Below are positions 1 through 44,772 of a DNA stretch of 45,757 nt, in pieces. This stretch comes from Candidatus Woesearchaeota archaeon. Lineage in GTDB: Archaea; Nanobdellota; Nanobdellia; Woesearchaeales; GW2011-AR4. The first letter of the stretch is position 1. Every line of letters starts with the position of its first letter. Made by a program: the position numbers and the translations under genes. The DNA lies in NCBI GenBank assembly GCA_018303645.1, contig JAGVXR010000058.1, forward strand, positions 1-45,757, given 5' to 3'. The notes under the pieces are model-generated. The model worked only from the letters and a program-made list of their open reading frames with translations, did no database searches and had not been told where the DNA came from.

Positions 1-762
1 GATATGCAATCGGCAAAAGAAATCGGCTTTGTTGATAAGAAAATACCTTACAATAGTATGTTTGACTATTTTAAGAAAAAAGAATTAACACCATTATTGA
101 CTCAAATAATAACTATAACGAGTTTGCCTTTGAAGTCAGTAGAACATGACTTTGCCATTGATGCAACAGGTTTCGGGACAAGCAACTTTCAAAGGTGGTA
201 TAGTTTCAAGCATGGCAAAGAAATTTCATCAAGAAGATGGGTTAAATGCCACTTTGTTACAGGCGTCAAGACAAACATAATTCCAAGCGTAAAAATAACC
301 ACAGAGTTCGACAACGACAGCCCAGAATTAAGGGAATTAGTTAAGACAACATCAGAAAACTTCGAAATGGAAGAAGTATCGGCAGATAAAGCATATTTAA
401 GCAGGGATAACATGAATTTAATAGAAGAAGCTGGGGCAACTCCATTTATTCCCTTCAAGAGCAATGCAACAGCAAAGCCAAAAAATTCTGCTATCTGGAA
501 GAAAATGTTTTATTACTTCCAGCTAAACAATGAAGAATTTTTACAGCACTACCACAAAAGAAGCAATGCTGAAACTTCTGTCCACATGATAAAGTCAAAG
601 TTCGGCGATAGTGTAAGGAGTAAGACATGGACAGCACAGGTTAATGAGGTATTGTGTAAAATTATCTGCCACAATATATGTTGTGTAATACAAGAAATGC
701 ACGAGTTGGGAATTGCTCCAGACTTCTGCCCGAATAGTCAGGAAGTTGCCCGAATAGTATGA
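1..762 (+). CDS. DDE-type transposase, C-terminal portion (5' end lies outside the window)
   Basis: Frame is open to base 1. DDE-like landmarks FAIDATG, SADKAYLS and RSNAETSVHMIKSKFG resemble IS4/IS5-superfamily transposases. Confidence 0.6.
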   Translation, partial: DMQSAKEIGFVDKKIPYNSMFDYFKKKELTPLLTQIITITSLPLKSVEHDFAIDATGFGTSNFQRWYSFKHGKEISSRRWVKCHFVTGVKTNIIPSVKITTEFDNDSPELRELVKTTSENFEMEEVSADKAYLSRDNMNLIEEAGATPFIPFKSNATAKPKNSAIWKKMFYYFQLNNEEFLQHYHKRSNAETSVHMIKSKFGDSVRSKTWTAQVNEVLCKIICHNICCVIQEMHELGIAPDFCPNSQEVARIV

Positions 763-4900: not shown

Positions 4901-5054
4901 AAATTCACAGGGTAGCTACAGCCTGGGTAGCATGAACTGCGGAGCTTACGACTTGGTTGCTTCTTATTCCGGTTATCAGCCTCAAACTAAAAGCATCAGC
5001 CTTCAGCCGAATCAGCAGATGACAGCAGACTTCACATTAGCCCTGATGAAATAG
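1989..5054 (+). CDS. Giant secreted Cys-rich surface protein with repeated CDGxDNDCDG metal-binding-type motifs and a C-terminal carboxypeptidase-regulatory-like beta-sandwich
   Basis: N-terminal signal-like MKAKKRVLLLAIGLLLVLNIEFAYS. Motifs CDGKDNDCN, CDNLDNDCDGSIDEGC, CDGLDNDCDGLVDEC and CADGLDNDCDGTADC. C-terminus GSVRNSDNQAISSADV...GSYSL...GYQPQTKSISL...ADFTL. Confidence 0.8.
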   Translation: MKAKKRVLLLAIGLLLVLNIEFAYSSFVEDTITITETFFPEVFYFVPGYGAVTSPSNADTSIFRSDPALAEAALAGLARLIFVASQGQSITQLISITTADGAKINVNEKGEVEMRTSDGTFLYGTDLKFVSGKDNSDGSSTASGTFKGNDNKVYAVEVTSPHWLSSSPTAIDLKQAVEQAPPPQFTIFIPEPPTYILLYVPPKIPLCTPQTEVCDGKDNDCNSKIDDYVINDCKSEEGLCAKQLGVCKGTRKKCNGLNNYQDCTTNEYGVSGKYQETETQCDNLDNDCDGSIDEGCGCLPASTKPCGYNDKGICQLGTQVCSADGKWGDCIGAVYPDSFKETACDGLDNDCDGLVDECVTNPCGECGQLPTEVCNYQDEDCNAEPKSPTTATFNGKFYQDFSNYCPAGTVCKGSYADGVDNNNDGIVDENIDENVKSKPNNNYQSWCETCAANQGQACGNCGTIDCGGNCVNQGVCSPNSVQCSGDTTQTCAGNCQWQSVQNCNNQDGWYGGGNTQQATCGSADNDASSDFRDYGCSAGSCSYSITQTKDCDSSDAWYGGGNNAGCGTDPNSVWNDYYVTTNTNSCTSTTACTGTGSVNCDSSDVCNNKCEGTIFTSVPPMKDYYVATNTNSCTSTTDSPVTEDCATKSSTDSDGSATAYTTQGTVVDYTSCTLSGCGSNAYNDACSGTTLTEYGASGSSFVSGTKQCQDFETFYCSGTNRYRQEWGCSSSPGYCNDAAVADILIEDCNTQDGWYCNGATREYRDYGCAPSSCTYTVASSENCAAKASTDTDGSAAAYTVGGTVTDYVTCSAGSCTSNSYNDACSATMLTEHGTSGASFVSNSYNCENLESNYCSGDRYFRNEWACTSSPGACTDAADTAIGTNADGDAKDLQCGDSLCDNAAGVYDSTKTATETNCADGLDNDCDGTADCSDTDCNGSIAGSVRNSDNQAISSADVSAMKDLSTVKSATTNSQGSYSLGSMNCGAYDLVASYSGYQPQTKSISLQPNQQMTADFTLALMK
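3921..4640 (+). repeat. Internal tandem duplication (about 138 codons, two diverged copies) inside the giant surface-protein gene
   Basis: CATKSSTDSDGSATAYTTQGTVVDYTSC...YCSGTNRYRQEWGCSSSPGYC is paralleled by CAAKASTDTDGSAAAYTVGGTVTDYVTC...YCSGDRYFRNEWACTSSPGAC. Copy 2 starts near 4335. Confidence 0.7.
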
Positions 5055-5311
5055 TCCATGCCTCATGCGACGGCAAAAACGGCTGCGCTTTCTATGACAG
5101 CATTTCAAAAGCAGCCTGCGACAACTCGCAGCCCGGCTGGGTCAGGGACTACAATTCCACACATTATGTTGTTTGCGCGCCCGGCGCCCCACAGCCAAAA
5201 CTCGAGATAGAGGCAAGCGTAAGCTGCGCAAGCGGCACCTTGGTCAAAATAACAAGAATTGTGGTGTACAACGGCAAGCCTGTTAAGCTGACTGTTGCAA
5301 CATGCGGCTAA
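4991..5311 (+). other. Start-codon-less open frame (-1 relative to the giant gene), probably its frameshifted C-terminal extension
   Basis: Frame is open from 4991 to TAA at 5309-5311 with no ATG/GTG/TTG. It encodes ...PDEIVHASCDGKNGCAFYDSISKAACDNSQPGW...VKLTVATCG. Its stop lies 1 nt before the next ATG (5313). Confidence 0.35.
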
Positions 5312-5312
5312 A

Positions 5313-5654
5313 ATGACAAAAACAAAATTTAAAATCGATGAAATAATGCTGGTGCTTATCGTGGTTTTTATAGCCACATTTGTAAATATATACACCAAAG
5401 CTAAAGAGCCCGATATGGAGGCGGAGAAAATAACAGCGATGATTTTGGACGACCACAGCATAAGCTTTGCCAATGGCAATGTAATAGACGAAAGCAAGCT
5501 GATGGAAATCAAAAATATGGACTACGGGGATTTTAAAAACTCGCTTAAAGCCAAAAGTGATTTTTGCGTTTATATTGAAGATGGGGATGGAAATGTCATA
5601 TTGTCCAAAGGCTCGTCAAGATTCAATGGAGACGGCTTAAGTTGCAGGGAATAA
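5313..5654 (+). CDS. Small N-terminally membrane-anchored hypothetical protein
   Basis: MTKTKFKIDEIMLVLIVVFIATFV hydrophobic N-terminus. ATG at 5313 follows the preceding stop by 1 nt. The longer 5295 start is also possible. Confidence 0.5.
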   Translation: MTKTKFKIDEIMLVLIVVFIATFVNIYTKAKEPDMEAEKITAMILDDHSISFANGNVIDESKLMEIKNMDYGDFKNSLKAKSDFCVYIEDGDGNVILSKGSSRFNGDGLSCRE

Positions 5655-5682
5655 AATACTTAAAAAGGAATGCCAAAAATAA

Positions 5683-8598
5683 ATGAGATATAATATGCCA
5701 CAGATAAAAAAGAGGATGTATCTGCTGTTTTTTGTAATATCTTTACTCTTGCCCCTCTCAGTGAATTCCCAGACATGCACGCAATTATCCTGCTTCAGCT
5801 TTGGCAAGACCTGTGTCCAGACTGCTAGCGGAGCTCAATGCGCTGACTACTGCAAGGACAAGGGCTTGGCAGTTGCAGCAGTCGGCGGCTGCTCTCTTGA
5901 CAAGAGGTACTGCAGCGCAGGAGGCGTATTGACAAGCAAATGCAGTGTTTGCGGCTGCGCAAAAGGCGAGGTATGCCAAAGCGACGGCTCGTGCCTGAAA
6001 GTGTGCAATGACGGCACTAAAAGCGGGCAGTGCTCCGCCCAAAAGCCGTTATATTGCGACAACGGCAAGCTTGTTGAAAAATCAAATAATTGCGGTTGTG
6101 ATGAAGGCAAAGTGCCTCAAAGCGATGGAACTTGCGGGTTTAAGTCATTTGCAAAAGATTCAACAATTTACGATTTTATTTATGGGTTGCAAAATGGAGT
6201 AAGGGAAAGGCTCAATTACAATAATATTGCCCTTCAAGGAACTGCTTTTGCATCAAGCACTTATGATGCGCCTGCTAATTGGGGACCATATAAACCTACC
6301 CCGGATAAGGTGATTGATGGGATTTATACAGATTGGCTGTCATCAGCTAGCTCGCAGCAAGAGAAAAACCAATACATAGGAATTGAATGGAATGAAGAAA
6401 AAACTTTCAATCAGGTCAAATTTGTGCAGTCAAAGCGTCATGTAAAAAGCTACAAGGTACAATATTTCAAGGATGGAAATTGGATTGATGCTACCAAAGA
6501 AAAGCAATTGGAATATTTCCCGAAAGATTTTGAACTTAATGATTGGGTTTGGGAGAATGAAAATGCATTCTTTGAGCCTGTAAAGGCAAGAAAAGTCAGA
6601 ATCTTTTTCCCAGAATGCTACGGGGTTTGCAGAATTCGTGAAGTTGGTGTTTACAACAGCGACGAAGATTCTTTGGGTTTATACACGCCAAATTACGCCG
6701 AAGGAGAATTCATTTCAAGAATAATTGATACTGGGACTTTGAAGAACAATGTGAAATATGAAAATCTTTACTTTACATCCCATGCTGAAGGCTCCTCGGG
6801 CAGCGAGGCGTCTGTGAAACTTCAAGTTAGGACAGCCACCATAACAAATGAGGGATTTAAAGGAGTATTCACGCCATGGACAGGCCCGGATGGCACTTCA
6901 GGAACATTTTACGAGAATTCAGGGCAGGCAATAAACCCAGTTGTCTACAAGTCAGATTCATTTTACTCTTCAACGGGATTTGTGTCTCCGACTGCAACAG
7001 GCGAGAAATTCAATACATGGGCAAATCCGCAGAATGCTTTTGCAAGCGACTTATCGTATGCGTACAAAACAGCCCAGCCCTCATTTAAAAGAGGGCAGCC
7101 AATATCCACTTCATGCCAAGCCTTTTTAGATCTCTCATCGAATGGTGGGAATTCCTATGAAGCAAAAAAATATTCTAATTTTGGAAGTGGTGATTTGGGC
7201 AAAGGAGGCCCAGCTTTATCAGACGGATTCACTTTTGGCAGCACTGATGATTTGTGGGGCAGGAGATGGTATCCGTCAGATTTTGCAAACAGCAATTTTA
7301 GAGTTAGGATAAGCCATGGCGTAGAAAGTTCAGGAGGCCCTTCTCCCGGTGCCCAAGACTACTATAACTTCAATCTGCCTGACTTAAGCGGTAAAAAAAT
7401 AAGGGGCATTGAAGTAAAAGTGCAGGGGCTATGCGACGGAACATCATCCGAATCCATATTAAAAGTGGATAGCATTAAATTAAATGTATACCTATATCAT
7501 GAAACTTATGACAAAAGCATCATTACAGGCTCCCACAACGGCAAAAAGTACATCCAGTATAGGGCATTGTTCTCAACCAATGACAAGAGCAAAGTGCCGT
7601 TTTTAGACGATGTCAAAATCATCTACTCGGGAAAGTTCAATTCAAAGCCTGTAGTGAGCACAAAAAACCAGGAAGTTGTTTTAGGAACTCCAGTTAATTT
7701 TGCAGCCATTGCGAATGACATTGATGGAAAAATTATCTCCTACGAGTGGGACTTCGGAAATGGCAAAACAGGAACTGGAAGCAATCCGGTCTACAGCTAT
7801 CCAAATGACGGCTTCTACACTGTAAAAGTTACAGCAAAAGATGATGACGGAGCTATAGCAAAAGCAAAGGCAAAAGTATCTGTCAATGTTTATGATTGCT
7901 TATCCGATGCTGCTCCAAAAAGCGGTCCTGCTGCAAACTTATTCGAGCCTGCAGATCCTTTAATAAAACTCAAAGCGACAGAAGCGTTATTGGAGTATGC
8001 CCAAAGCAAGGGCATAAAGGTTAAGGATGTCGACACAACATTAGAATATTACGAAGCAGCCAATAACTACATCACAAAACATATGAGTTACTTATCAGAT
8101 GGACCAACATGGAATGATCCTTGGAATGGGGCATCTGCCAAGGCATTGTTCCAGGCAGGTAACAGGGGATGCGGCAACAAGTATTGCGGAGATTGCGAGG
8201 ACTTCGCTATAACAACGACAGCTTTGCTAAGGGCAATGGGCGTAAGCCCGAAATGCGCCTATACAGCATGCTCATCAATCCATTGCTATAATATCCTAAA
8301 TATAGGCGGCAGGTTCAGGCTAGTGGAGCCGCAAAAAAACAGCCTGACAAGCGAGTTTAATTCAAAATCTTATGAGTGGAAATATGAAGGTTATACTTCA
8401 TATGAAACACACCGTGTTTTTAATGATGAGGTTGGAAAATTCGCATACGCAACTGTAGGTGATGCCAATCCGGAAACTTATACTATAAACTACCCAAGCA
8501 CAAGCGGCCTGCCAAACCCAAGCAAGAAATGCCCAGCTTCGTATTCGCAATGGAAAGGGCAGGGTGACCAAACCTACTTTAATGATAAATGCCTATAA
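5683..8598 (+). CDS. Secreted multidomain protein: Cys-rich N-terminus, discoidin (F5/8 type C)-like, PKD, and C-terminal transglutaminase-like cysteine protease core
   Basis: Signal-like MYLLFFVISLLLPLSVNSQ. Discoidin-like NIALQG..ASS...VIDG...NQYIGIEW...VKFV. PKD-like YEWDFGNGKTGTGSNPVYSYPNDGFYTVKVTAKDDDG. Transglutaminase-like core GDCEDFAITTTALLRAMGV. Confidence 0.75.
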   Translation: MRYNMPQIKKRMYLLFFVISLLLPLSVNSQTCTQLSCFSFGKTCVQTASGAQCADYCKDKGLAVAAVGGCSLDKRYCSAGGVLTSKCSVCGCAKGEVCQSDGSCLKVCNDGTKSGQCSAQKPLYCDNGKLVEKSNNCGCDEGKVPQSDGTCGFKSFAKDSTIYDFIYGLQNGVRERLNYNNIALQGTAFASSTYDAPANWGPYKPTPDKVIDGIYTDWLSSASSQQEKNQYIGIEWNEEKTFNQVKFVQSKRHVKSYKVQYFKDGNWIDATKEKQLEYFPKDFELNDWVWENENAFFEPVKARKVRIFFPECYGVCRIREVGVYNSDEDSLGLYTPNYAEGEFISRIIDTGTLKNNVKYENLYFTSHAEGSSGSEASVKLQVRTATITNEGFKGVFTPWTGPDGTSGTFYENSGQAINPVVYKSDSFYSSTGFVSPTATGEKFNTWANPQNAFASDLSYAYKTAQPSFKRGQPISTSCQAFLDLSSNGGNSYEAKKYSNFGSGDLGKGGPALSDGFTFGSTDDLWGRRWYPSDFANSNFRVRISHGVESSGGPSPGAQDYYNFNLPDLSGKKIRGIEVKVQGLCDGTSSESILKVDSIKLNVYLYHETYDKSIITGSHNGKKYIQYRALFSTNDKSKVPFLDDVKIIYSGKFNSKPVVSTKNQEVVLGTPVNFAAIANDIDGKIISYEWDFGNGKTGTGSNPVYSYPNDGFYTVKVTAKDDDGAIAKAKAKVSVNVYDCLSDAAPKSGPAANLFEPADPLIKLKATEALLEYAQSKGIKVKDVDTTLEYYEAANNYITKHMSYLSDGPTWNDPWNGASAKALFQAGNRGCGNKYCGDCEDFAITTTALLRAMGVSPKCAYTACSSIHCYNILNIGGRFRLVEPQKNSLTSEFNSKSYEWKYEGYTSYETHRVFNDEVGKFAYATVGDANPETYTINYPSTSGLPNPSKKCPASYSQWKGQGDQTYFNDKCL

Positions 8599-8600
8599 AA

Positions 8601-9806
8601 ATGACAAATAAACAAATAATTCCGATTATTGTATTTTTGCTGTGCATTGGCATAGCAAATGCAATTGAATTTTACGAGGGCAGTGTTGTCATAAACACTT
8701 TCAACGCAGATGTAAGCATAGGGCAGAATGCAGATGTCACTCTTAATTACACTTTAGCTGGGAACGAGAAGGTAAGCCTTAATTTTGAGAATGTACCTGA
8801 ATCAGCCCAGATAACAGCAAATGGGCAGAGTTACGGGAGAAGCTTTGACTTGGAAATAAACGGCAGCGCTTTTATATTGGTTAAATATACTGCTGATGTT
8901 GGAACAGAAGCTATAAAAGAGCTTACAATTGACCCGAATATTCTGTTTAATGGATTGGTAAGCGCAAACAGGGTTCAAAATTATTTTGTCAAGATAAAAA
9001 TGCCTTCCAATGTCAACGAGCTTTTAAGCTCAAGCGAAAGCCCGTCAGAAATCTCAACAGAGGGCGGAAGGAAGGTTTTTATTTGGGAAAAAACAAATGC
9101 CTATGCCTCTTCGCTGACAATAGACTGGCACACATTGAATGTAAACATTGACGTGGAAAGGATTGTCCCAAGCGAAATAACCGATGAATTTGTTGTTAAG
9201 AATGTAATAAGAAACAATGGCAACGATATCTCAAATGTAAGATTGGTCCAGACATGGCTGGAAGGCGACTTTGACCCTGTTTCGCCGCTAAATGAGTTTG
9301 AAAGGATAGAAGCCGGCAATGACAGAAGGCTCGAGTGGAAAAAAACAATCTCATCAATTCCGGGCGGCTCTGTGGGCGAGTTTTCTTACAGGCTAAAAGT
9401 ATTGAACAGGGGGGAAAATGTCGTTTTCAGGCATTTATATCTCTATGTCGGCGATGTCTTGGTAAAAATAGTTGAGAAGGCAGAGTACACAACATTGGGA
9501 AGCGCAGAGCCATCCAACATAAGCGACATAAACGTAACAAGCGCAACAGAGGTTGCAGCATTTGTGACTGAAGATGGTATAATAGTGCCTGAAGAGCCTT
9601 CTGAAGATGGTGCAAGCCTGATTCCTCCGATAACAGAAGAAGATATTGAAGCGGAATTCCTGCCTGAAGCGCCACCAAAAAAAGAACCCACTATCCCGGA
9701 CAGAAGGACATTGTTCTGGACGGGCATTTTGGTTGCCATATTGGCGCTTGTCGTCTTGCTGTTTATTTACTTAAACAGAAGAAAGGAAAAGGGCGTTAAA
9801 TTCTAG
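8601..9806 (+). CDS. Surface protein with N-terminal signal and C-terminal transmembrane anchor (hypothetical)
   Basis: MTNKQIIPIIVFLLCIGIANA signal. C-terminal LFWTGILVAILALVVLLFIYLNRRKEKG. Alternative ATG at 8589 overlaps the upstream stop. Confidence 0.6.
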   Translation: MTNKQIIPIIVFLLCIGIANAIEFYEGSVVINTFNADVSIGQNADVTLNYTLAGNEKVSLNFENVPESAQITANGQSYGRSFDLEINGSAFILVKYTADVGTEAIKELTIDPNILFNGLVSANRVQNYFVKIKMPSNVNELLSSSESPSEISTEGGRKVFIWEKTNAYASSLTIDWHTLNVNIDVERIVPSEITDEFVVKNVIRNNGNDISNVRLVQTWLEGDFDPVSPLNEFERIEAGNDRRLEWKKTISSIPGGSVGEFSYRLKVLNRGENVVFRHLYLYVGDVLVKIVEKAEYTTLGSAEPSNISDINVTSATEVAAFVTEDGIIVPEEPSEDGASLIPPITEEDIEAEFLPEAPPKKEPTIPDRRTLFWTGILVAILALVVLLFIYLNRRKEKGVKF

Positions 9807-9852
9807 ATACTGTCAAAAAATTTAAGTATATGGCTGCTTATTTTTGATTATA

Positions 9853-10614
9853 ATGCGCAAATCACAATCTGCCATTGAATTCATCAGCTTAGCTACTTTC
9901 ATGCTTTTGGTGATACTCGGCTTTTTTGCCATAACAAGCTCCAAGATACTGGAGTCAAAAGAAGAGGGGAACAGGGAAATCGCTGCAGACATTGCCGATT
10001 TCGCCTACCGCGAGATAGAGATCGCAAAGTCAGTCAATGACGGCTACACAAGGGTTTTTTCCATGCCACAGACAGTCAACGGCGTCAATTACAGCATAAA
10101 AATAACTGACAACAGGGAGCTTGCCGTGGATTACCTTGGCTACGAGCATGTAAGATTCCTGCCTTCGAATGTTACCGGAAACCTCACCAAGGGCACAAAT
10201 ATGATCAGCAAGGCAAATGGCGTTATTTTTATAAACGGAAGCCAAATTGAAATATCCCCCTTTCTCACAATCCTTTTAATGAAAAACAACAATATTAATG
10301 CCATCGGCTTTGACAATAGCGGAAATGTTATTTTAAGGGGGGGCCTGCAGCAAAACATCGCCAATCCCCAAATTACGGGCGATGATGAGTTTATATTTAG
10401 GGACAGCAATGGAAACAATGTTGCAGTCATAAATCTTGTAAATGGCAACATGTTTATAAAAGGAAGCCTCCAGGAGAACCAAGCATCATTAACGCCATCT
10501 GCTTTCAGCAGCGATTTCATTGTGAAAGCCCAAAATGGGAATGTAATCGCGTATTTTGACGAATCCGGTAATCTCTACTTAAAAGGCACTTTAACTCAAA
10601 ATGGAAATCCTTGA
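9853..10614 (+). CDS. Archaeal type IV pilin-like protein (class III signal peptide)
   Basis: N-terminus MRKSQSAIEFISLATFMLLVILGFF has a charged head, then a Q/S cleavage-type site, then a hydrophobic helix. TATA-like TTTAAGTATA at 9819-9828. The track's TTG at 9844 is less likely. Confidence 0.6.
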   Translation: MRKSQSAIEFISLATFMLLVILGFFAITSSKILESKEEGNREIAADIADFAYREIEIAKSVNDGYTRVFSMPQTVNGVNYSIKITDNRELAVDYLGYEHVRFLPSNVTGNLTKGTNMISKANGVIFINGSQIEISPFLTILLMKNNNINAIGFDNSGNVILRGGLQQNIANPQITGDDEFIFRDSNGNNVAVINLVNGNMFIKGSLQENQASLTPSAFSSDFIVKAQNGNVIAYFDESGNLYLKGTLTQNGNP

Positions 10615-10632
10615 GGTGAAAAAAATGGAAAA
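10611..10632 (+). repeat. 22-bp exact direct repeat, copy 1 (TTGAGGTGAAAAAAATGGAAAA)
   Basis: Identical to 11411-11432, exactly 800 bp away. Contains SD GAGGTGA plus ATGGAAAA. Confidence 0.9.
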
Positions 10633-10659
10633 AATCAGTGAGATAAATGTGATGCAATA

Positions 10660-11079
10660 CTACTTTAGTCCAAGCTCATTAATCAATTCAGAAGTGGTAA
10701 GCACTTTGACTTTTGATTGCATTTTGAAAGCCTTTTCATCCGACCAAATTGCACAGTTTGATTTCAATGCTAATGCAAAATACTCTATATCTTTTGAATG
10801 TGGCGAGATCTCTTTAGCATCAGAAATCTTATCCATGAAGTCTTCTAGTGGCATAAATTTAATCCTTAATTTCATAATACTTATAAAGTTATCAAAATCC
10901 TCATGCGAAAACCCTGATTTAAACCTTATCTCTTCTCGGTTATTTTCCAGCTCAGCCAGCATTCTAAATGGCGTAAAAAAATCTGTTGCGTCGGAGAAAA
11001 ATATTCCCATTGCCGCCGAACTTAATTTTTTACCTATTATTACAGAAAAAACTCGATTTGCATCGATTATTAACCTCAT
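10660..11079 (-). CDS. vapC: PIN-domain protein (VapC-like toxin)
   Basis: MRLIIDANRVFSVI N-terminal acidic motif and DIEYFALALKSNCAIWSDEKAF C-terminal PIN-like motif. Lies 12 nt downstream of a small partner gene. Confidence 0.6.
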   Translation of the reverse strand: MRLIIDANRVFSVIIGKKLSSAAMGIFFSDATDFFTPFRMLAELENNREEIRFKSGFSHEDFDNFISIMKLRIKFMPLEDFMDKISDAKEISPHSKDIEYFALALKSNCAIWSDEKAFKMQSKVKVLTTSELINELGLK

Positions 11080-11091
11080 TTTAGAGTTAAT

Positions 11092-11349
11092 TTACGCTAT
11101 GCCTTTCTCTTCGAGTTCCTTAGAAATGCCATTAGAAACTTTCTTTCCCAACTCTAAAGCATCTTTTTCCGTTAATTTGCTTTTAGACGCTAATGCCTCA
11201 AGCAGGGCTTTCTGCAATTCTTTTGACCTAGAAAGTCGCAACTCAAATGCCTTTGCTTTTATAGCTTCCTCAGCTACTTTAGACCAATCTACCTCAGGAA
11301 ATTCCCTTATCTTGTTTTCCAATTCCTTTGATAACTGCAATATCGGCAT
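11092..11349 (-). CDS. Small helical antitoxin-like protein (VapB-like partner)
   Basis: 85 aa, charged and coiled-coil-like, immediately upstream of the PIN gene on the same strand. Confidence 0.45.
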   Translation of the reverse strand: MPILQLSKELENKIREFPEVDWSKVAEEAIKAKAFELRLSRSKELQKALLEALASKSKLTEKDALELGKKVSNGISKELEEKGIA

Positions 11350-11410
11350 TTTATTACCATTTTATTCAAAGCCCAATCTGCTATATAAACCTTTCGTTCA
11401 AGAATATTTA

Positions 11411-11432
11411 TTGAGGTGAAAAAAATGGAAAA
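11411..11432 (+). repeat. 22-bp exact direct repeat, copy 2 (overlaps SD and start of the tail-fibre-like gene)
   Basis: Identical to 10611-10632. Confidence 0.9.
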
Positions 11433-12327
11433 TATAAGTAGGACAAAAATAGAAAATAAAAAAGAAAAATATTATAAAAATAAAAAATCCATCTTAAGGT
11501 CCTCTTTAGCCTCAACTTTGAAGCTTGTCTTAGCGATAGCTCTATTTGCCATATTTGCTTTAATTGTAAATGCAGGCGATGTAATAGTTGAAAATGGCAA
11601 AATAAATGTTGACAGCAAATTGTATGTAGATGATGCTGGAAAAGTCGGCATCGGGACGACGAGTCCGGCTGGGATGGTTCATATTTTTGGTGGTGGGGCA
11701 ACCGCGCGCCTGATTCTGCAAAAGAGTTCGTCAGGCGCTGGCAATGCGATGCAGTTCAGAGACGAAACTAATGCCGCAAAGGCTATGTTGGGCATAGCAG
11801 AGGTTGCAAACGGAGGCGTCGTGGGGTCAGCGCTCAACGACTTCTTTGTAAGGGCTGAAGGCACTCAAAGGATTATGCTTTCACCAAATAACGGTGATAC
11901 CATCGGAGTAGTTATCAATTCAGCCGGCAACGTCGGCATCGGGACGACAAGCCCAAGCTACAGGCTAGATGTTGCAGGCGATGCGCATGCAACAAGCTTT
12001 CCCACCTCATCTGATGCGAGGCTCAAAAAGAATATAGCGCCAGTCACCAACTCGCTTGACAAGCTGAAAAATGTCAATGGAGTCTATTTTGAGTGGAATG
12101 AAAAATACAAGCAGCTTGGAAGAGCTACAAATGGAAAGCAGATTGGAATTATTGCGCAGGATTTGGAGAAAGAATTTCCAGAGCTTGTAACCACGTGGGG
12201 TAATGAAAGCTACAGGGCTGTTGATTATGGAAGATTAACTGCAGTCCTTCTCGAGGCTGTAAAAGAACTTGATGCGGAAAATCAGGAACTAAAGCAAAGA
12301 GTTGAAGATTTAGAGGCAAAAGCTTAA
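11425..12327 (+). CDS. Tail-fibre-like protein with C-terminal intramolecular chaperone auto-processing (peptidase S74-type) domain
   Basis: N-terminal TM anchor, GIGTTSP repeats, then SSDARLKKNIAPV...NGVYFEWNEKY...GIIAQDLEKEFPELV...AVDYGRLTAVLLEAVKELDAENQELKQRVEDLE. SD GAGGTGA lies 5 nt upstream of the ATG. Confidence 0.7.
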   Translation: MENISRTKIENKKEKYYKNKKSILRSSLASTLKLVLAIALFAIFALIVNAGDVIVENGKINVDSKLYVDDAGKVGIGTTSPAGMVHIFGGGATARLILQKSSSGAGNAMQFRDETNAAKAMLGIAEVANGGVVGSALNDFFVRAEGTQRIMLSPNNGDTIGVVINSAGNVGIGTTSPSYRLDVAGDAHATSFPTSSDARLKKNIAPVTNSLDKLKNVNGVYFEWNEKYKQLGRATNGKQIGIIAQDLEKEFPELVTTWGNESYRAVDYGRLTAVLLEAVKELDAENQELKQRVEDLEAKA

Positions 12328-28766: not shown

Positions 28767-28925
28767 GTGGGGGTGGACATATTGTCATTTTTTTCTGATG
28801 ATGAGAAGCAGGATTTCATTACTGTAGATGGCAATATCTACACCCACAAGCAGATTGAAACCAGAAACGGCATCATATTCATGCGAATGAAAAAGAGGCT
28901 TCTGCCTATTTTAGACAATAAATGA
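28767..28925 (+). CDS. Possible small protein (non-ATG start)
   Basis: GTG 28767, GTG 28773 or TTG 28782 as start. ...DDEKQDFITVDGNIYTHKQIETRNGIIFMRMKKRLLPILDNK. Its TGA overlaps the next ATG (ATGA). Confidence 0.25.
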   Translation: MGVDILSFFSDDEKQDFITVDGNIYTHKQIETRNGIIFMRMKKRLLPILDNK

Positions 28926-29089
28926 AAGACAAGCAGCTTCTTAGGGTTTTAGTTATAGTGCTTATTGTATTTTTGGTTCTTAACATTGTATTTCTTGCTT
29001 TAAAAATCATCAGCGAGTTTTTTTTCTGGATTGTTATAGCTGTTATTGCGGTTTTTGCATATAAATACCTGCCGAAGATGAGGAAATGA
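28922..29089 (+). CDS. 55-aa two-TM membrane protein (hypothetical)
   Basis: MKDKQLLRVLVIVLIVFLVLNIVFLALKIISEFFFWIVIAVIAVFAYKYLPKMRK. Confidence 0.35.
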   Translation: MKDKQLLRVLVIVLIVFLVLNIVFLALKIISEFFFWIVIAVIAVFAYKYLPKMRK

Positions 29090-29091
29090 TT

Positions 29092-30069
29092 TTAATTAGC
29101 CTGATTTTTTGGCAAATACTGCTCTATAGAGGTAGGTATTCTAAATGATTCTTTGACTCCTTCGTCATACATTTTTTGCCTTTTTCCACTAGGCGGTATT
29201 CCTGCCAGATCTCTATACTTTGTAACAGCCCTTCTAGAAATTTTTCCTAATTTTTTTGATAATTCCTCATCGCTTAGGGCAATTCCTGATTTAATCTCAC
29301 TTCTCAGCACATTATTCAAACTAGGTAGAATGTTGTAGAGCGCCACTTGATCCAAATTAGGAAGCAGATAAAAAACAGGCAAAGTTACTTTACCATTTTG
29401 GGAGTCTATACAGACGCTTCTGTTTTTCAAAAGACGGTAATATGTTGAATGATGGTATGGAAGTTGCTCTAAATAGCCAATATTAGAGCGGGGCAGGGGA
29501 ATCAATTCTGAAGGGTCTAGTTTCAACAAAAATCCAGCTTGCCTTTTTCCAATTTGGAGGTAACAATCTTCCAAAGTCTTTACAATCCAGTTTCTTTGAC
29601 CTAATAGCCAAACAACCAATCTCTTAACATCACTTGTTAGCTGGTATTGCCTTAATTCCATCTTTGAAGGCTTAAAATGTTCTGCAGGCAGCATAGAAAA
29701 ATCCCCATAACCCCTTACATGATAAGTTATGTCAGGCAAAGCCATGGTTTTATCATCGACTTTTGCTTCTAGAACATCCCCAAAATGGAGTTTAACGCCC
29801 TCTGTCTTTCTGCCTTGAGTAATTCTGGTATTTGCAGTTGCAATGCCACCGCTTATTTCTTTAATGACACCACAATAGAATAGGGGATTGCCTCCGCCGC
29901 TGCCCTTTTCTGTTTTAAGCCTGCCCTCTACAATTTCTGGGTTGTTCAGAATAACATCTATGGTTCTGTCTATAACCAGAATAGGGATTTCAAACATTGC
30001 ATGATTTAATAATATTCTTCGCTCCTGAACAAGTTTTGGACTTTGAATAAGTCTTTGAGATAACCCCAT
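29092..30069 (-). CDS. Sigma-54 (RpoN)-like protein lacking the core-binding domain
   Basis: Region I-like LSQRLIQSPKLVQ...NNPEIVE. PDITYHV...VVWLLGQRNWIVKTLEDCYLQIGKRQAGFL. HTH-like HHSTYYRLLKN. RpoN box SRRAVTKYRDLAGIPPSGKR. TATA GTTTAAATAT (30091-30100) about 30 nt upstream of the ATG. Confidence 0.65.
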   Translation of the reverse strand: MGLSQRLIQSPKLVQERRILLNHAMFEIPILVIDRTIDVILNNPEIVEGRLKTEKGSGGGNPLFYCGVIKEISGGIATANTRITQGRKTEGVKLHFGDVLEAKVDDKTMALPDITYHVRGYGDFSMLPAEHFKPSKMELRQYQLTSDVKRLVVWLLGQRNWIVKTLEDCYLQIGKRQAGFLLKLDPSELIPLPRSNIGYLEQLPYHHSTYYRLLKNRSVCIDSQNGKVTLPVFYLLPNLDQVALYNILPSLNNVLRSEIKSGIALSDEELSKKLGKISRRAVTKYRDLAGIPPSGKRQKMYDEGVKESFRIPTSIEQYLPKNQAN

Positions 30070-30134
30070 AATTTATAGAGTAATAGCGGCATATTTAAAC
30101 CTTTTTATTGTAACAATGGAATAGTAGTAAATAA

Positions 30135-30395
30135 ACTCTTTAAGATTCAGAAAAGTTAGGGGCTTCGCTGCTGCCCAGCCAGCCTAAGCTGTCAGTTACA
30201 GTAATCCAGCACTTTTTTTAGACCACTTACGCAAGCAGAGGCTTAAATATTGCCTAGTTGACGTTTAGCCATTGCTCATTTAAGTTAACTTGCGCTCCCT
30301 TAAAGTGTTGCTTTGGCGTTAATCAATTTTAGCAAGTTGGTGTTAGATACTTTTAACTGTAAGTGAGTTTTACAGCTACGCACCCCCAAAGGCAT
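30135..30395. ncRNA. Candidate structured non-coding RNA locus (strand and class unresolved)
   Basis: 400-bp ORF-free gap with a locally GC-richer core. Promoter-like elements on both flanks: AACCTTTTTA at 30098-30107 reading +, TTTATAAATATA at 30409-30420 reading -. GGGG/CCCC ends and several 4-8 bp hairpins. Confidence 0.25.
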
Positions 30396-30469
30396 ATAAT
30401 TCTCTTTGTATATTTATAAATTTTGCATATAGAACTTATAGATTATATATAAAATAAAAGAAAAAAGGC

Positions 30470-34687: not shown

Positions 34688-34788
34688 GGGCCCATAGCTC
34701 AGCCTGCTTAGAGCACCTGTCTAATTGGTGTGAAACTCTTAAGTAGGAAGAAATCAGGGGGTCAGGGGTTGAAATCCCCTTGGGCCCA
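34688..34788 (+). tRNA. Intron-containing tRNA, best model tRNA-Lys (CUU) with two short introns
   Basis: Acceptor GGGCCCA/TGGGCCC, D arm GCTC/GAGC, T arm AGGGG-TTGAAAT-CCCCT. 26 extra nt in the anticodon region. Removing 34720-34734 and 34743-34753 gives CCTGA-CTCTTAA-TCAGG. Confidence 0.75.
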
Positions 34789-44031: not shown

Positions 44032-44772
44032 ATGGCGTTAGAATTCCTAAGAAAAATCGGGCTTTCAGATGGCGAGATTAAGGTTTATTCTTCCCTTCTT
44101 GACTTAGGAAAAGCTCCTTTGAATAAAATCCATGAAAGAACAGGCATTGAAAGAAGGAATATTTATGACATTCTGAACAAGCTAATTGAGCGTGGCTTAG
44201 TGACTTACATAAAAGAGAATAAAAAGAGATTATTCGAGATTAGCCATCCTAATAAAATAATTGGCTATGTAGAAGAAAAGAAACATGAATTGGATATAAC
44301 AAAGCAAGAAATAGAAAAAGAACTTCCTTCAATTCTCGAAAAATATAATTTTAAAAAGCCCGATATAAATGCAGAAATTTTCAGAGGCATAGAGGGGGTA
44401 AAAGCAGTTTGGGAGGATATGCTCAATCACAAAGAAATTTATTGGATTGGTTCTGGCAGATATGTTCCAAAGAGGCTTTCTATCTGGTTTTCCAATTATA
44501 ATAGAAGAAGAGTAAAACAAAAAGTAAAATGGCTAAATCTTATGAGAAATGAAATGAAAAAGGAAATAAAAAAGCCTTTAGAATTTGAGAAAATTAAATT
44601 TCTTCCAAAAGAATTCAGCGGCAATCCTACTGCTATTGGAATTTATGGCAATAAAATAGTTAATTTTTTGCTCGGAGAAGATTTTTTTGCATTTATGATA
44701 GAAAACAAGGAAATTGCAGATGATTACAGAAAATACCATAGTTTCTTATGGAACATAGCTAAAAACCAATAA
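44032..44772 (+). CDS. TrmB-family transcriptional regulator
   Basis: N-terminal wHTH LRKIGLSDGEIKVYSSLLDLGKAPLNKIHERTGIERRNIYDILNKLIERGLV. Confidence 0.75.
   Translation: MALEFLRKIGLSDGEIKVYSSLLDLGKAPLNKIHERTGIERRNIYDILNKLIERGLVTYIKENKKRLFEISHPNKIIGYVEEKKHELDITKQEIEKELPSILEKYNFKKPDINAEIFRGIEGVKAVWEDMLNHKEIYWIGSGRYVPKRLSIWFSNYNRRRVKQKVKWLNLMRNEMKKEIKKPLEFEKIKFLPKEFSGNPTAIGIYGNKIVNFLLGEDFFAFMIENKEIADDYRKYHSFLWNIAKNQ

What the first reader, a model, noticed from the sequence alone, without database searches (positions are those of the whole stretch)
29092..30069. Sigma-54 (RpoN) homologue without a core-binding domain in an archaeal gene neighbourhood
The 325-aa product carries three sigma-54 hallmarks in the right order:
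- A region I-like N-terminus (MGLSQRLIQSPKLVQ...VILNNPEIVE; compare bacterial LSQQLAMTPQLQQ...NPLLE).
- The DNA-binding module (PDITYHV..., VVWLLGQRNWIVKTLEDCYLQIGKRQAGFL, HTH-like HHSTYYRLLKNRS...NGKVTLPVFYLL).
- A near-consensus RpoN box (ISRRAVTKYRDLAGIPPSGKRQK).

Only about 60 residues separate region I from the DNA-binding part. Bacterial sigma-54 has region II plus a core-binding domain of roughly 200 aa there. Every informative neighbour is archaeal (L37e, LSm, S8e, Pth2, intron-bearing tRNA), and the gene has its own archaeal-style TATA 30 nt upstream of the ATG.

Archaeal RNAP uses TBP/TFB, not sigma factors. A CBD-less sigma-54 could be a domesticated DNA-binding regulator or an element aimed at a bacterial host or partner. 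No AAA+ enhancer-binding protein (GAFTGA type) and no TGGCAC-N5-TTGC promoter were seen in the window.
Basis: partly seen in the sequence, partly recalled or inferred. Interest (0 to 1): 0.75.

Follow-up and report, generated by a model that had tools for sequence, protein, structure and literature searches.

The report
Archaeal sigma-54 relic lacking polymerase-binding half
A tiny symbiotic archaeon carries a cut-down copy of the bacterial transcription factor sigma-54 that keeps the DNA-reading parts and has lost the part that grips RNA polymerase; it belongs to a previously undescribed family found so far only in such archaea.

Summary
Window 29092-30069 (minus strand) encodes a 325-aa protein.

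What it has and lacks:
- It has a significant Sigma54_DBD domain, including the HTH and RpoN box.
- Its N-terminus is genuinely homologous to sigma-54 region I.
- It has no region II and no core-binding domain.

It is not a chimera or contaminant. The identical gene, with the same archaeal neighbours, was assembled independently in many samples.

It is not a one-off. About 100 sequence clusters of ~320-aa proteins share this architecture. Every labelled member comes from DPANN archaea (Woesearchaeota, Pacearchaeota, "Nanoarchaeota").

In the window's own clade the gene is a ~1.06-kb single-gene cassette with its own archaeal promoter. It occupies a slot that is only 0-30 nt long in sister genomes. 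The slot lies between a newly noticed structured RNA gene and a small membrane-protein gene. Alleles in that slot are only 33-40% identical, while the flanking proteins are ~86% identical. The gene is nevertheless under purifying selection (dN/dS 0.23).

Best reading: a polymerase-independent, sequence-specific DNA-binding regulator derived from sigma-54. No enhancer-binding ATPase, -24/-12 promoter or conserved partner gene was found. Function is inferred, not shown.

The parts
29092..30069 (-). CDS of the 325-aa sigma-54-like protein (identical to NCBI J4480_05165, Candidatus Woesearchaeota archaeon)
   Evidence: ORF list. 100% match in the protein collection. Family profile end-to-end, 306.8 bits.
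29920..30069 (-). Region I-like N-terminus (aa 1-50), Leu/Gln-rich helices ending in NPEIVE
   Evidence: hhalign to bacterial region I positions 2-49, P 7.5e-6. Shuffle, reverse and deletion controls. AF2 helices 12-20, 23-26, 30-42 and 45-55.
29740..29919 (-). Family-specific linker (aa 51-110): one helix (62-84) plus a disordered stretch (84-97). It occupies the place of region II plus the CBD.
   Evidence: No similarity to bacterial sigma-54. Low pLDDT over 84-97. Weakest constraint, pN/pS 0.55.
29542..29739 (-). PDITY beta-hairpin (aa 112-128) and extra-long helix (aa 146-176)
   Evidence: AF2 secondary structure. Collinear hhalign alignment to bacterial PDxxV...ELH. pN/pS 0.25.
29428..29490 (-). 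Helix-turn-helix (aa 194-214; HHSTYYRLLKNR, cf. bacterial HESTISR), the counterpart of the -12-reading HTH
   Evidence: Pfam DBD alignment, PDB alignment to 5ui5, hhalign. R212 is nearly invariant. pN/pS 0.19.
29170..29355 (-). RpoN domain (aa 239-300), with the RpoN box ISRRAVTKYR at aa 277-286 (nt 29212-29241)
   Evidence: Alignments to 2ahq, 2o8k and 5ui5. R280, Y285, R286, P292 and R297 are (nearly) invariant in 78 family members. pLDDT above 90.
29095..29169 (-). Family-specific C-terminal tail (aa 301-325; consensus Y..G...PY.I....E.YL). The matched bacterial sigma-54s end within a few residues of the RpoN box.
   Evidence: Family consensus, with Y301 nearly invariant. The bacterial sigma-54 matches reach the C-terminus of those proteins.
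30092..30099 (-). Archaeal-type TATA box (tttaaata) preceded by an A-rich BRE-like stretch, 26-27 nt upstream of the ATG. It implies a leaderless or near-leaderless mRNA.
   Evidence: Direct reading of the sequence. The function is an inference.
30156..30387 (-). Independent ~230-nt structured RNA gene forming the upstream boundary of the cassette slot. It is not part of the protein's function as far as tested.
   Evidence: nhmmer coordinates. 47 pairs, 12 of them compensatory. 95.5% of cells paired against 28-47% in slid controls, and 0 of 500 shuffles reach the observed value. No Rfam match at E <= 10.
30409..30420 (-). Conserved TATA box (tttataaatata) of the RNA gene, ~27 nt upstream of its GGGGG start
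   Evidence: Conserved CTATAAATATA in all loci examined. Sequence reading.
28922..29089 (+). 55-aa membrane-protein gene (TM55), the convergent downstream boundary of the slot. Its stop codon lies 2 nt from the stop of the sigma-54-like gene.
   Evidence: ORF list. Conserved across the clade. Slot measurements.

Best explanation
**What it is.** The gene encodes a sigma-54-derived protein that has kept the DNA-facing half of sigma-54 and lost the RNA-polymerase-facing half.
- Kept: region I packed with the extra-long helix and HTH (in bacteria this is the '-12 regulatory centre'), and the RpoN domain that reads the -24 element.
- Lost: region II and the core-binding domain.

**How it most likely works.** It is transcribed from its own archaeal TATA promoter. 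It most likely acts without any sigma-type docking to RNA polymerase. It would bind a bipartite DNA site through the HTH and the RpoN box, and so regulate archaeal transcription of one or a few targets, probably as a repressor or roadblock.

**Family and genomic behaviour.** It belongs to a ~320-aa family known so far only from DPANN archaea. The family probably arose from one ancient capture of a bacterial rpoN followed by deletion of region II and the CBD. In this Woesearchaeota clade it behaves as an exchangeable single-gene cassette.

**Shown:** the homology, architecture, fold, archaeal host, family, cassette behaviour and purifying selection.

**Inferred:** DNA binding, independence from polymerase, and a regulatory role.
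For: **Architecture.** Sigma54_DBD is above threshold. Region I homology survives controls. No CBD is detectable. The model is confident and its top 8 Foldseek hits are sigma-54 chains.

**DNA-reading residues.** These are the most conserved part. The RpoN box residues RR..KYR and the HTH arginine are nearly invariant in 78 members. Constraint is tightest over the ELH and HTH, pN/pS 0.19-0.25, with whole-gene dN/dS 0.23.

**Published domain roles (PMC5095919).**
- Region I together with the ELH/HTH forms one structural module at -12.
- The RpoN domain binds -24 and does not seem to contact the polymerase.
- The CBD makes the extensive contacts with core. This is exactly the part missing here.

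**Distinct family.** 102 cluster representatives score E <= 1e-10, nearly all are 290-340 aa, and they match end to end. Bacterial-length sigma-54s appear only from E ~1e-8 and match only over the DBD.

**Host.** All labelled members are DPANN. Archaeal marker genes occur on the same contigs.

**Not an artefact.** Identical DNA occurs in at least 8 independent assemblies.

**Expression signal.** A TATA box lies at -26/-27 from the ATG.

**No sigma-54 partners.** No GAFTGA motif occurs in the window or in 345 kb of related loci. There is no excess of -24/-12 promoter matches. There is no conserved neighbour gene.
Against: - No DNA target has been identified and no binding was tested.
- Retention of region I is hard to explain for a plain repressor. 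In bacteria its known roles involve the polymerase and AAA+ activators.
- A conserved, family-specific C-terminal tail and linker helix could be new protein-docking surfaces.
- One family member (L016) sits beside catalytically dead bacterial beta and beta' fragments and a sigma-70-region-4/SNF2 fusion. That hints at polymerase-type contacts in at least that lineage.
- Only contig-sized pieces of each genome were visible, so activator ATPases or bacterial-type polymerase genes elsewhere in these genomes cannot be excluded.
Confidence: 0.55

Rival explanations
1. It is still an initiation or specificity factor. The protein would dock on an RNA polymerase through new surfaces (linker helix, C-terminal tail, region I/ELH). 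The polymerase could be the archaeal enzyme or a bacterial-type module. The protein would then direct or lock transcription at -24/-12-like promoters, possibly released by an ATPase.
For: - Region I is retained and under selection, pN/pS 0.36.
- The C-terminal tail and linker helix are family-specific and conserved.
- In L016 the gene starts 3 nt after a Sigma70_r4+SNF2 protein. It also abuts genes for a beta' N-terminal fragment (246 bits to bacterial beta', covering the counterpart of E. coli residues 217-488) and a beta flap/C-terminal fragment.
- Sigma-70-type proteins are reported as prevalent in Woesearchaeota, with their mechanism unclear (PMC8204110).
Against: - The CBD, which makes the extensive contacts with core, is absent from all ~100 clusters.
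- The L016 beta' fragment has lost the NADFDGD catalytic motif and has no close relatives.
- No polymerase fragments occur near any of the other 10 family contexts.
- No GAFTGA ATPase and no promoter enrichment were found.
Confidence: 0.15
2. It is a conflict-system or mobile-element protein. Examples would be a regulator, exclusion factor or immunity factor carried by cassettes and mobile elements of DPANN archaea. Fast divergence and exchange would then reflect an arms race rather than housekeeping regulation.
For: **Variable slot.** The gene occupies a slot that is 0-30 nt in seven sister genomes. In others the slot holds unrelated cargo, such as an ORF with a PIN-like N-terminus.

**Divergent alleles on one backbone.** Three alleles are 30-40% identical and not monophyletic, while the flanking HAD protein is ~86% identical.

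**Other signs.**
- One allele lies on the other side of the RNA gene and is frameshifted.
- In L038 the gene ends a run of ~16 overlapping, unannotated small genes that includes a second Sigma54_DBD protein and lies near ParA.
- One Pacearchaeota MAG carries two paralogues.
Against: - No hit in PADLOC or PHROGs beyond generic HTH matches.
- No relatives in IMG/VR motif scans or BFVD structures.
- No integrase or repeats were seen at the slot.
- In Pacearchaeota and Nanoarchaeota contigs the gene sits stably among housekeeping genes: exosome, SBDS, proteasome, RNase J, Mre11/Rad50.
- Overall dN/dS is 0.23, so there is no sign of positive selection.
- This reading overlaps with the best explanation, because it could still be a DNA-binding regulator.
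Confidence: 0.2
3. It is an artefact: a bacterial rpoN fragment misassembled or misbinned into an archaeal contig, or a decaying pseudogene.
For: - Sigma-54 is otherwise a bacterial protein.
- The sequences come from MAGs and metagenomes.
- One allele (L018) is frameshifted.
Against: - Identical gene and flanks occur in at least 8 independent assemblies from different projects.
- The gene's GC content is 38.1%, against 39.6% for the window.
- It has an archaeal promoter.
- Bacterial sigma-54s are only distant relatives, E >= 1e-8 and over the DBD only.
- The ~320-aa architecture is conserved in ~100 clusters, and AlphaFold confidence depends on their co-variation.
- dN/dS is 0.23.
Confidence: 0.01

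Closest known systems
Bacterial sigma-54 (RpoN; TIGR02395, COG1508; structures 5BYH, 5UI5, 7QV9)
   Same: - Region I, the PDxxV hairpin, the extra-long helix, the HTH and the RpoN domain occur in the same order.
- The RpoN-box motif RR..KYR is present.
- The predicted fold matches sigma-54 chains.
   Different: - Region II and the core-binding domain (E. coli residues 57-250) are absent and replaced by ~60 unrelated residues.
- The protein has an extra conserved C-terminal tail of ~25 aa.
- It scores 39 bits against a TIGR02395 cutoff of 277.
- The host is an archaeon with TBP/TFB-type promoters.
- No bEBP and no -24/-12 promoters were found.
Sigma-70-type proteins reported in Woesearchaeota and other DPANN (Castelle et al. 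2021, PMC8204110)
   Same: Both are bacterial sigma-factor-derived proteins encoded in DPANN genomes. In both cases mis-binning is excluded and the mechanism is unknown.
   Different: They belong to a different, unrelated sigma family. That paper and its held supplements do not mention sigma-54. In L016 a Sigma70_r4 domain is fused to an SNF2 helicase next to a sigma-54-like gene.
Isolated sigma-54 DNA-binding fragments studied in vitro (RpoN-domain NMR structures 2AHQ and 2O8K/2O9L)
   Same: They are the polymerase-free C-terminal part of sigma-54. 2O8K is the published RpoN-domain entry, and the review assigns -24 promoter binding to this domain.
   Different: Those are laboratory truncations. 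Here the truncation is natural, keeps region I, is conserved across a family, and is encoded in archaea.
Archaeal winged-helix/HTH transcription regulators (for example TrmB, encoded at window 44032-44772)
   Same: The proposed way of working is the same: a sequence-specific DNA binder that modulates TBP/TFB/RNAP access at archaeal promoters.
   Different: There is no homology. The sigma-54-like protein has two separated DNA-reading modules (HTH and RpoN box) plus region I, and no ligand-binding domain was detected.

Membership tests
Bacterial sigma-54 (RpoN) | C-terminal DNA-binding domain with HTH and RpoN box (Pfam PF04552) | tested here: met
   38.4 bits against a cutoff of 22.8. hhalign 99.9% probability, E 2.5e-31 for residues 146-325. 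RpoN-box residues are nearly invariant.
Bacterial sigma-54 (RpoN) | Core-binding domain (Pfam PF04963; E. coli residues 120-250) | tested here: not met
   No hit at E <= 10. The middle segment shows no profile similarity. All short-family members lack it, whereas bacterial hits carry PF04963.
Bacterial sigma-54 (RpoN) | Region I / activator-interacting domain (Pfam PF00309) | tested here: met
   The Pfam model itself does not fire. Profile-profile comparison places aa 1-50 on bacterial positions 2-49, score 37.5 against shuffles of 10.5 +/- 1.8. The homology is therefore remote but real.
Bacterial sigma-54 (RpoN) | Full-length equivalog score (NCBIfam TIGR02395) | tested here: not met
   39.2 bits against a cutoff of 277.35, with only the C-terminal 134 residues matched.
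Bacterial sigma-54 (RpoN) | Acts with a bacterial core RNA polymerase (beta, beta', alpha) | not testable with these tools
   No bacterial-type polymerase genes occur in the 45.8-kb window. The whole genome was not available. Only L016 has (inactive) beta and beta' fragments nearby.
Bacterial sigma-54 (RpoN) | Dependence on AAA+ enhancer-binding proteins with a GAFTGA loop | tested here: not met
   No GAFTGA-like or ESELFGH-like motif occurs in six-frame translations of the window or of 345 kb of related loci. Absence from the whole genome is unproven.
Bacterial sigma-54 (RpoN) | -24/-12 promoters (TGGCAC-N5-TTGCW) | tested here: inconclusive
   44 matches with up to 2 mismatches against 32.5 +/- 6 expected, with no exact match and most inside genes. 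The family's own target motif may differ.
Short sigma-54-like family of DPANN archaea (defined here) | ~320 aa; region I, linker, PDxxY hairpin, ELH-HTH, RpoN domain, Y..G...PY.I tail; end-to-end profile match | tested here: met
   The family profile matches the window protein over its full length, 306.8 bits. 78 full-length members were aligned. The exhaustive search gives 102 representatives at E <= 1e-10.

The most novel reading that the evidence does not exclude
DPANN archaea use this sigma-54 remnant as a genuine promoter-locking or promoter-selecting factor on a multisubunit RNA polymerase. This would be either their own archaeal enzyme or a bacterial-derived clamp/flap module like the one in L016. 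Region I would still act as a switch that is opened by an ATPase. That would amount to an enhancer-dependent, sigma-54-style control step operating inside the archaeal domain.
Probability: 0.08. Interest if true: 0.95.

Novelty: new variant of a known kind. Interest (0 to 1): 0.72.

Why it matters
Sigma-54 is regarded as an exclusively bacterial factor. It has no relatives in archaea or eukaryotes, and its origin is obscure.

This is a conserved archaeal family that keeps exactly the DNA-facing module (region I with the ELH-HTH, plus the RpoN domain) and discards the polymerase-embedded parts. That makes it a natural experiment on three questions:
- what those modules can do on their own;
- how bacterial transcription parts are re-used after transfer into archaea;
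- how genome-reduced DPANN symbionts regulate genes.

It adds to the earlier report of sigma-70-type proteins in DPANN and gives a concrete, expressible 325-aa target for DNA-binding and interaction assays.

The cassette-like exchange beside a conserved RNA gene also documents a recombination hot-spot in Woesearchaeota genomes.

Tried and rejected
1. **Chimeric assembly or contamination.** Rejected: identical DNA and neighbours occur in at least 8 independent assemblies.
2. **A hidden CBD after frame correction.** Rejected: region I and the DBD are in one ORF, and the upstream DNA is a separate RNA gene.
3. **Region I resemblance as a composition artefact.** Rejected by the shuffle, reverse and deletion controls.
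4. **Viral origin.** No relatives were found in IMG/VR motif scans with P0001 and P0079, in BFVD structures or in PHROGs. GenBank phages gave only a weak DBD-like match in two Enterococcus phage records.
5. **Known defence system.** No PADLOC hit.
6. **Conserved partner gene.** All-against-all comparison of neighbours in 8 non-redundant loci found none. ABC transporters recur in 2-3 loci only.
7. **Domain fusions in longer members.** No recognisable extra domains.
8. **Functional link to the adjacent RNA.** A covariance model of the RNA finds nothing near family members in six distant loci. Most genomes with the RNA lack the gene.
9. **The adjacent RNA as a known family (SRP, RNase P or other).** No Rfam hit even at E <= 10.
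10. **L016's beta and beta' genes as a working mini-polymerase.** Rejected: the NADFDGD motif is lost.
11. **Scans that failed.** The scan with the 4-sequence alignment found nothing.
12. **Selection from within-population variants.** Impossible, because all copies are identical.
13. **First structure prediction.** The prediction with 4 sequences was unusable, pLDDT 50.5.
Full report
**Observation**

- Pfam gives Sigma54_DBD at 38.4 bits (cutoff 22.8), covering residues 164-298 and profile positions 23-159 of 160. There is no Sigma54_AID or Sigma54_CBD hit even at E <= 10.
- NCBIfam's full-length rpoN model matches only the C-terminus, 39 bits against a cutoff of 277.
- The best matches among solved structures, by sequence, are Aquifex sigma-54 chains. 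The HTH (HESTISR against HHSTYYR) and the RpoN box (ARRTVAKYR against SRRAVTKYR) align.

**A family, not a singleton**

- The word-indexed search found only four relatives.
- An exhaustive HMMER search with their profile against 1.84 billion cluster representatives found 264 hits: 102 at E <= 1e-10 and 31 at E <= 1e-30.
- Down to about E 1e-10 nearly all hits are 290-340 aa and match end to end.
- Proteins of bacterial sigma-54 length (420-500 aa) appear only from E ~1e-8 and match only with their C-terminal DBD.
- The target therefore belongs to a distinct ~320-aa family, separated from bacterial RpoN by a clear score gap.

**Architecture**

I aligned 78 full-length family members and 32 bacterial sigma-54s from the same search and compared the two profiles.

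- The whole-length comparison gives 99.8% probability. It places the family's N-terminus on bacterial region I and its C-terminal 180 residues on the DBD, with the bacterial region II and CBD as one long deletion.
- Taken separately, residues 146-325 match the bacterial DBD at 99.9% (E 2.5e-31).
- Residues 1-50 match bacterial positions 2-49 (score 37.5, P 7.5e-6).
- Residues 51-145 match nothing significant.

Region I is Leu/Gln-rich, so I controlled for composition:

| Version of the N-terminal alignment | hhalign score |
|---|---|
| Real | 37.5 |
| 60 column shuffles | 10.5 +/- 1.8 (maximum 14.7) |
| Reversed | 18.1 |
| Real, against bacterial profile with region I removed | 15.4 |

The region I homology is genuine.

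AlphaFold with the 78-sequence alignment gives pLDDT 87.5 and pTM 0.85 (with four sequences it gave 50.5). The model contains:
- N-terminal helices;
- a helix at 62-84 and a disordered stretch at 84-97;
- a beta-hairpin at 112-128 (the PDITY motif, collinear with bacterial PDxxV);
- a 31-residue helix at 146-176 (the ELH);
- the HTH, a second hairpin, a three-helix RpoN domain, and a short conserved tail.

Foldseek against the PDB returns sigma-54 chains from RNAP complexes as the top eight hits (E 5e-6 to 1e-3, probability 1.0).

The published domain map of sigma-54 (PMC5095919) sets these boundaries: RI 1-56, RII 57-120, CBD 120-250, ELH 315-353, HTH 365-385, RpoN domain 386-477. It also states the following:
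- RI and the ELH/HTH form one structural module at -12.
- The CBD makes the extensive contacts with core.

The archaeal family has therefore kept the DNA-facing modules and removed the polymerase-embedded ones.

**Host and authenticity**

*Gene content of the window:*
- S8e, LSm, L37e.
- Diphthamide synthase and aIF-1A.
- Class-I LysRS and TrmB, and PTH2.
- A tRNA-Leu.
- A second Rfam tRNA hit spanning 101 nt that ARAGORN misses, which fits an intron.

*Identity and assembly:*
- The identical protein is NCBI J4480_05165 from a Candidatus Woesearchaeota MAG and is recorded on 18-28 contigs.
- Eight loci from separate ENA and JGI assemblies carry byte-identical gene DNA and the same neighbours. 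Chimerism and contamination are excluded.

*Taxon labels.* Every family member that carries a label is DPANN:

| Label | Tags or bins |
|---|---|
| Woesearchaeota | J4480, HYY70 |
| Pacearchaeota | J4474, two paralogues in one MAG |
| 'Nanoarchaeota archaeon' | AABX03, AABW63, H14-bin056 |
| 'archaeon' | V1725 |

*Contigs of other members:*
- Several carry archaeal markers: S6e, aIF5B, aIF2-gamma, RtcB, exosome subunits, SBDS and proteasome-alpha.
- Two contexts (L009, L016) are taxonomically uninformative.

*Literature:*
- I found no description of this family in the searchable library.
- Castelle et al. 2021 report sigma-70-type proteins in Woesearchaeota but not sigma-54.
- The 'RpoN' in another DPANN paper is archaeal RNAP subunit N.
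- One JGI record auto-names a member 'sigma54-like protein'.

**Expression signals and missing partners**

- A TATA box (tttaaata, 30099-30092), preceded by an A-rich stretch, lies 26-27 nt upstream of the ATG. This geometry fits a leaderless archaeal mRNA (inference).
- No GAFTGA-type motif is encoded in the window or in 345 kb of related loci.
- TGGCAC-N5-TTGCW with up to 2 mismatches is not clearly enriched: 44 matches against 32.5 +/- 6 expected, none exact.
- An all-against-all comparison of neighbours in eight non-redundant loci finds no conserved partner gene.
- Longer family members carry no recognisable extra domain.

**Genomic behaviour**

*Synteny with L014.* A syntenic Woesearchaeota contig (L014) compares with the window as follows:
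- The HAD hydrolase is 86% identical in protein and ~80% in DNA.
- The upstream intergenic region is 69% identical over 355 nt.
- The downstream small genes are ~70% identical.
- The sigma-54-like protein between them is only 33-35% identical, with no DNA similarity.

*The backbone.* I used a 21-nt conserved block of the upstream region as an anchor and fetched 18 more loci: 11 GTDB species representatives and 7 metagenome contigs. They share this backbone at 75-98% protein identity:

M29 peptidase - alpha/beta hydrolase - HAD - DUF5679 - [RNA element] - TM55 - orf52 - orf74 ... L37e - LSm - S8e

*The slot.* The distance from the RNA's 3' end to the TM55 stop codon varies as follows:

| Slot content | Distance (nt) | Loci |
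|---|---|---|
| Empty | 0-30 | seven genomes |
| Sigma-54-like gene | 1061-1073 | window, L035, L014 |
| Other cargo, e.g. an ORF with a PIN-like N-terminus in L034 | 543-2178 | L026, L028, L034, L018 |

*A fourth backbone lineage.* In L018 (the same contig as L029) a family member lies on the other side of the RNA gene and is frameshifted.

*Allele relationships.*
- In a neighbour-joining tree the three alleles on this backbone fall into three different sub-branches.
- The window allele groups with P0002 and with P0003. P0003 sits on a 52%-GC contig with a different context.
- The L018 allele groups with P0010 (64% identity).
- The L014 allele groups with P0017.
- This fits repeated acquisition or allele replacement better than vertical descent.

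*Selection.*
- The gene is not decaying. Nei-Gojobori dN/dS between the window gene and its 71%-identical orthologue is 0.23.
- pN/pS is lowest over the ELH (0.25) and the HTH (0.19), and highest in the linker (0.55).

*Other lineages.*
- In Pacearchaeota and Nanoarchaeota contigs the gene holds a stable position after a small methyltransferase, among housekeeping genes.
- Even there it is only 31% identical while the methyltransferase is 53% identical. The family evolves fast in general.
- In L038 it ends a run of about 16 overlapping, unannotated small genes that includes a second, 176-aa Sigma54_DBD protein. These genes have no PHROG matches.
- No family member was found in IMG/VR, BFVD, PADLOC or PHROGs.

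**The upstream RNA**

The 400-nt 'intergenic' region is mostly a separate gene.
- It has a conserved TATA box about 27 nt upstream of an invariant GGGGGUGCGUAGCUGUAAAAC start.
- It is about 230 nt long, has paired 5' and 3' ends, and ends in an oligo-U tract.
- RNAalifold predicts 47 pairs, 12 with compensatory changes.
- 95.5% of cells pair, against 28-47% when partners are slid. The 12 covarying pairs compare with 5.8 +/- 1.7 in shuffles, and 0 of 500 shuffles reach that number.
- G-U patterns place it on the same strand as the protein gene.
- Rfam has no match even at E <= 10.
- It occurs once in each of the 11 GTDB genomes that the anchor scan found, and once per contig wherever seen. Most of those genomes lack the sigma-54-like gene.
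- A covariance model finds no homologue near family members in six distant loci.
- I therefore treat it as the landmark of an insertion hot-spot, not as a partner.

**L016**

One distant member (P0079) has a notable set of neighbours.
- It starts 3 nt after a 921-aa Sigma70_r4 + SNF2 helicase fusion.
- It abuts two short genes that are strongly similar to bacterial RNAP subunits. The first matches beta' (246 bits), over the counterpart of E. coli residues 217-488. The second matches the beta flap and C-terminal part.
- The beta' fragment has lost the NADFDGD motif and has no close relatives, so it cannot be a polymerase.
- The review lists the beta flap, the beta C-terminus, and the beta' zipper/Zn-binding region and dock as the sigma-54 CBD docking sites.
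- This is a single locus with no counterpart in the ten other contexts examined. It is nevertheless the main reason I keep a polymerase-linked rival alive.

**Conclusion**

*Established by the evidence:*
- The identification is sound: a natural sigma-54 derivative with no CBD and no region II, retaining region I.
- It is encoded and selected in DPANN archaea, and it is a member of a sizeable undescribed family.

*Most economical mechanism (an inference, not a result):*
- Polymerase-independent, sequence-specific DNA binding through the HTH and RpoN box.
- Region I would be retained as part of the ELH/HTH structural module.
- The protein would act on archaeal promoters.
- Its cassette-like, fast-diverging behaviour in Woesearchaeota suggests an accessory or conflict-related regulon rather than core transcription.

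*Not yet done:*
- No DNA target has been identified.
- No binding partner has been identified.
- No whole genome has been surveyed.

Noticed in passing
window 30156-30387 (minus strand), promoter ~30409-30420: A previously unclassified structured RNA gene of ~230 nt. It has its own archaeal TATA box, paired 5' and 3' ends, and an oligo-U terminator. It occurs once in each of the 11 GTDB genomes found by the anchor scan (mostly Woesearchaeota) and once per metagenome contig. 47 predicted pairs, 12 with compensatory changes. No Rfam match at E <= 10. One variant (L023) lacks the central domain and another (L014) has a 31-nt hairpin insertion.
   Followed up: yes
L016 5232-11438: A gene cluster around a distant family member: a 921-aa Sigma70_r4 + SNF2 helicase fusion, the sigma-54-like gene, a 471-aa bacterial beta' N-terminal fragment (matching E. 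coli residues 217-488, but with NADFDGD lost), and a 364-aa beta flap/C-terminal fragment. It looks like a catalytically dead polymerase clamp/flap module next to two sigma-derived proteins.
   Followed up: partly
L038 873-8981: A run of ~16 co-directional, start/stop-overlapping, unannotated small genes that ends in family member P0041. It also contains a separate 176-aa protein with only the RpoN-domain part of Sigma54_DBD. ParA and a type-IB topoisomerase lie nearby. Possibly a plasmid or virus-like module. No PHROG matches.
   Followed up: partly
slot between the RNA gene and TM55 in L026, L028, L034 and L018 (equivalent to window 29090-30155): In sister genomes the same slot holds unrelated cargo: a 124-aa ORF with a PIN-like N-terminus (L034; judged by eye, not profile-tested), 111-aa and 197-aa ORFs (L026, L028), and 305-aa plus 400-aa ORFs (L018). 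In seven genomes it is empty (0-30 nt). This marks a recombination or insertion hot-spot.
   Followed up: partly
L018 4597-5573 (same contig as L029): The family member in the 'Nanoarchaeota archaeon' H14-bin056 MAG lies on the opposite side of the RNA gene. It is split by a frameshift near residue 78 into ORFs of 78 and 247 aa. This is either a pseudogene or an assembly error.
   Followed up: no
P0034 and P0168 (NCBI J4474_02410 and J4474_03380): Two different family members come from the same Candidatus Pacearchaeota MAG, so a single genome can carry paralogues.
   Followed up: no
window 34688-34788 (plus strand): An Rfam tRNA hit (47.9 bits) spans 101 nt for a 71-position model and is not called by ARAGORN. 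This is consistent with an intron-containing archaeal tRNA.
   Followed up: no
window 4-762 and 1989-12327: A DDE transposase sits at the window start. It is followed by very large secreted or surface-type proteins (CarboxypepD_reg, PKD, transglutaminase-like), several unannotated ORFs, and a protein with a Peptidase_S74 'chaperone of endosialidase' domain, which is typical of phage tail spikes. Possibly a surface or adhesion island, or a viral remnant.
   Followed up: no
L025 and L031 (GTDB records titled 'uncultured Methanosarcinales archaeon', binchicken bins): These two contigs carry the Woesearchaeota-type backbone (HAD, DUF5679, the RNA gene, TM55, L37e, LSm, S8e at 80-98% identity to the window). 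They are probably mis-binned or mislabelled.
   Followed up: no
GenBank phage records PQ520317.1 and OR846593.1: Two Enterococcus phage records contain an unannotated stretch with weak similarity (27.6% identity, E 7e-4) to residues 146-299 of the protein, i.e. a sigma-54 DBD-like segment. Unrelated to the DPANN family.
   Followed up: no
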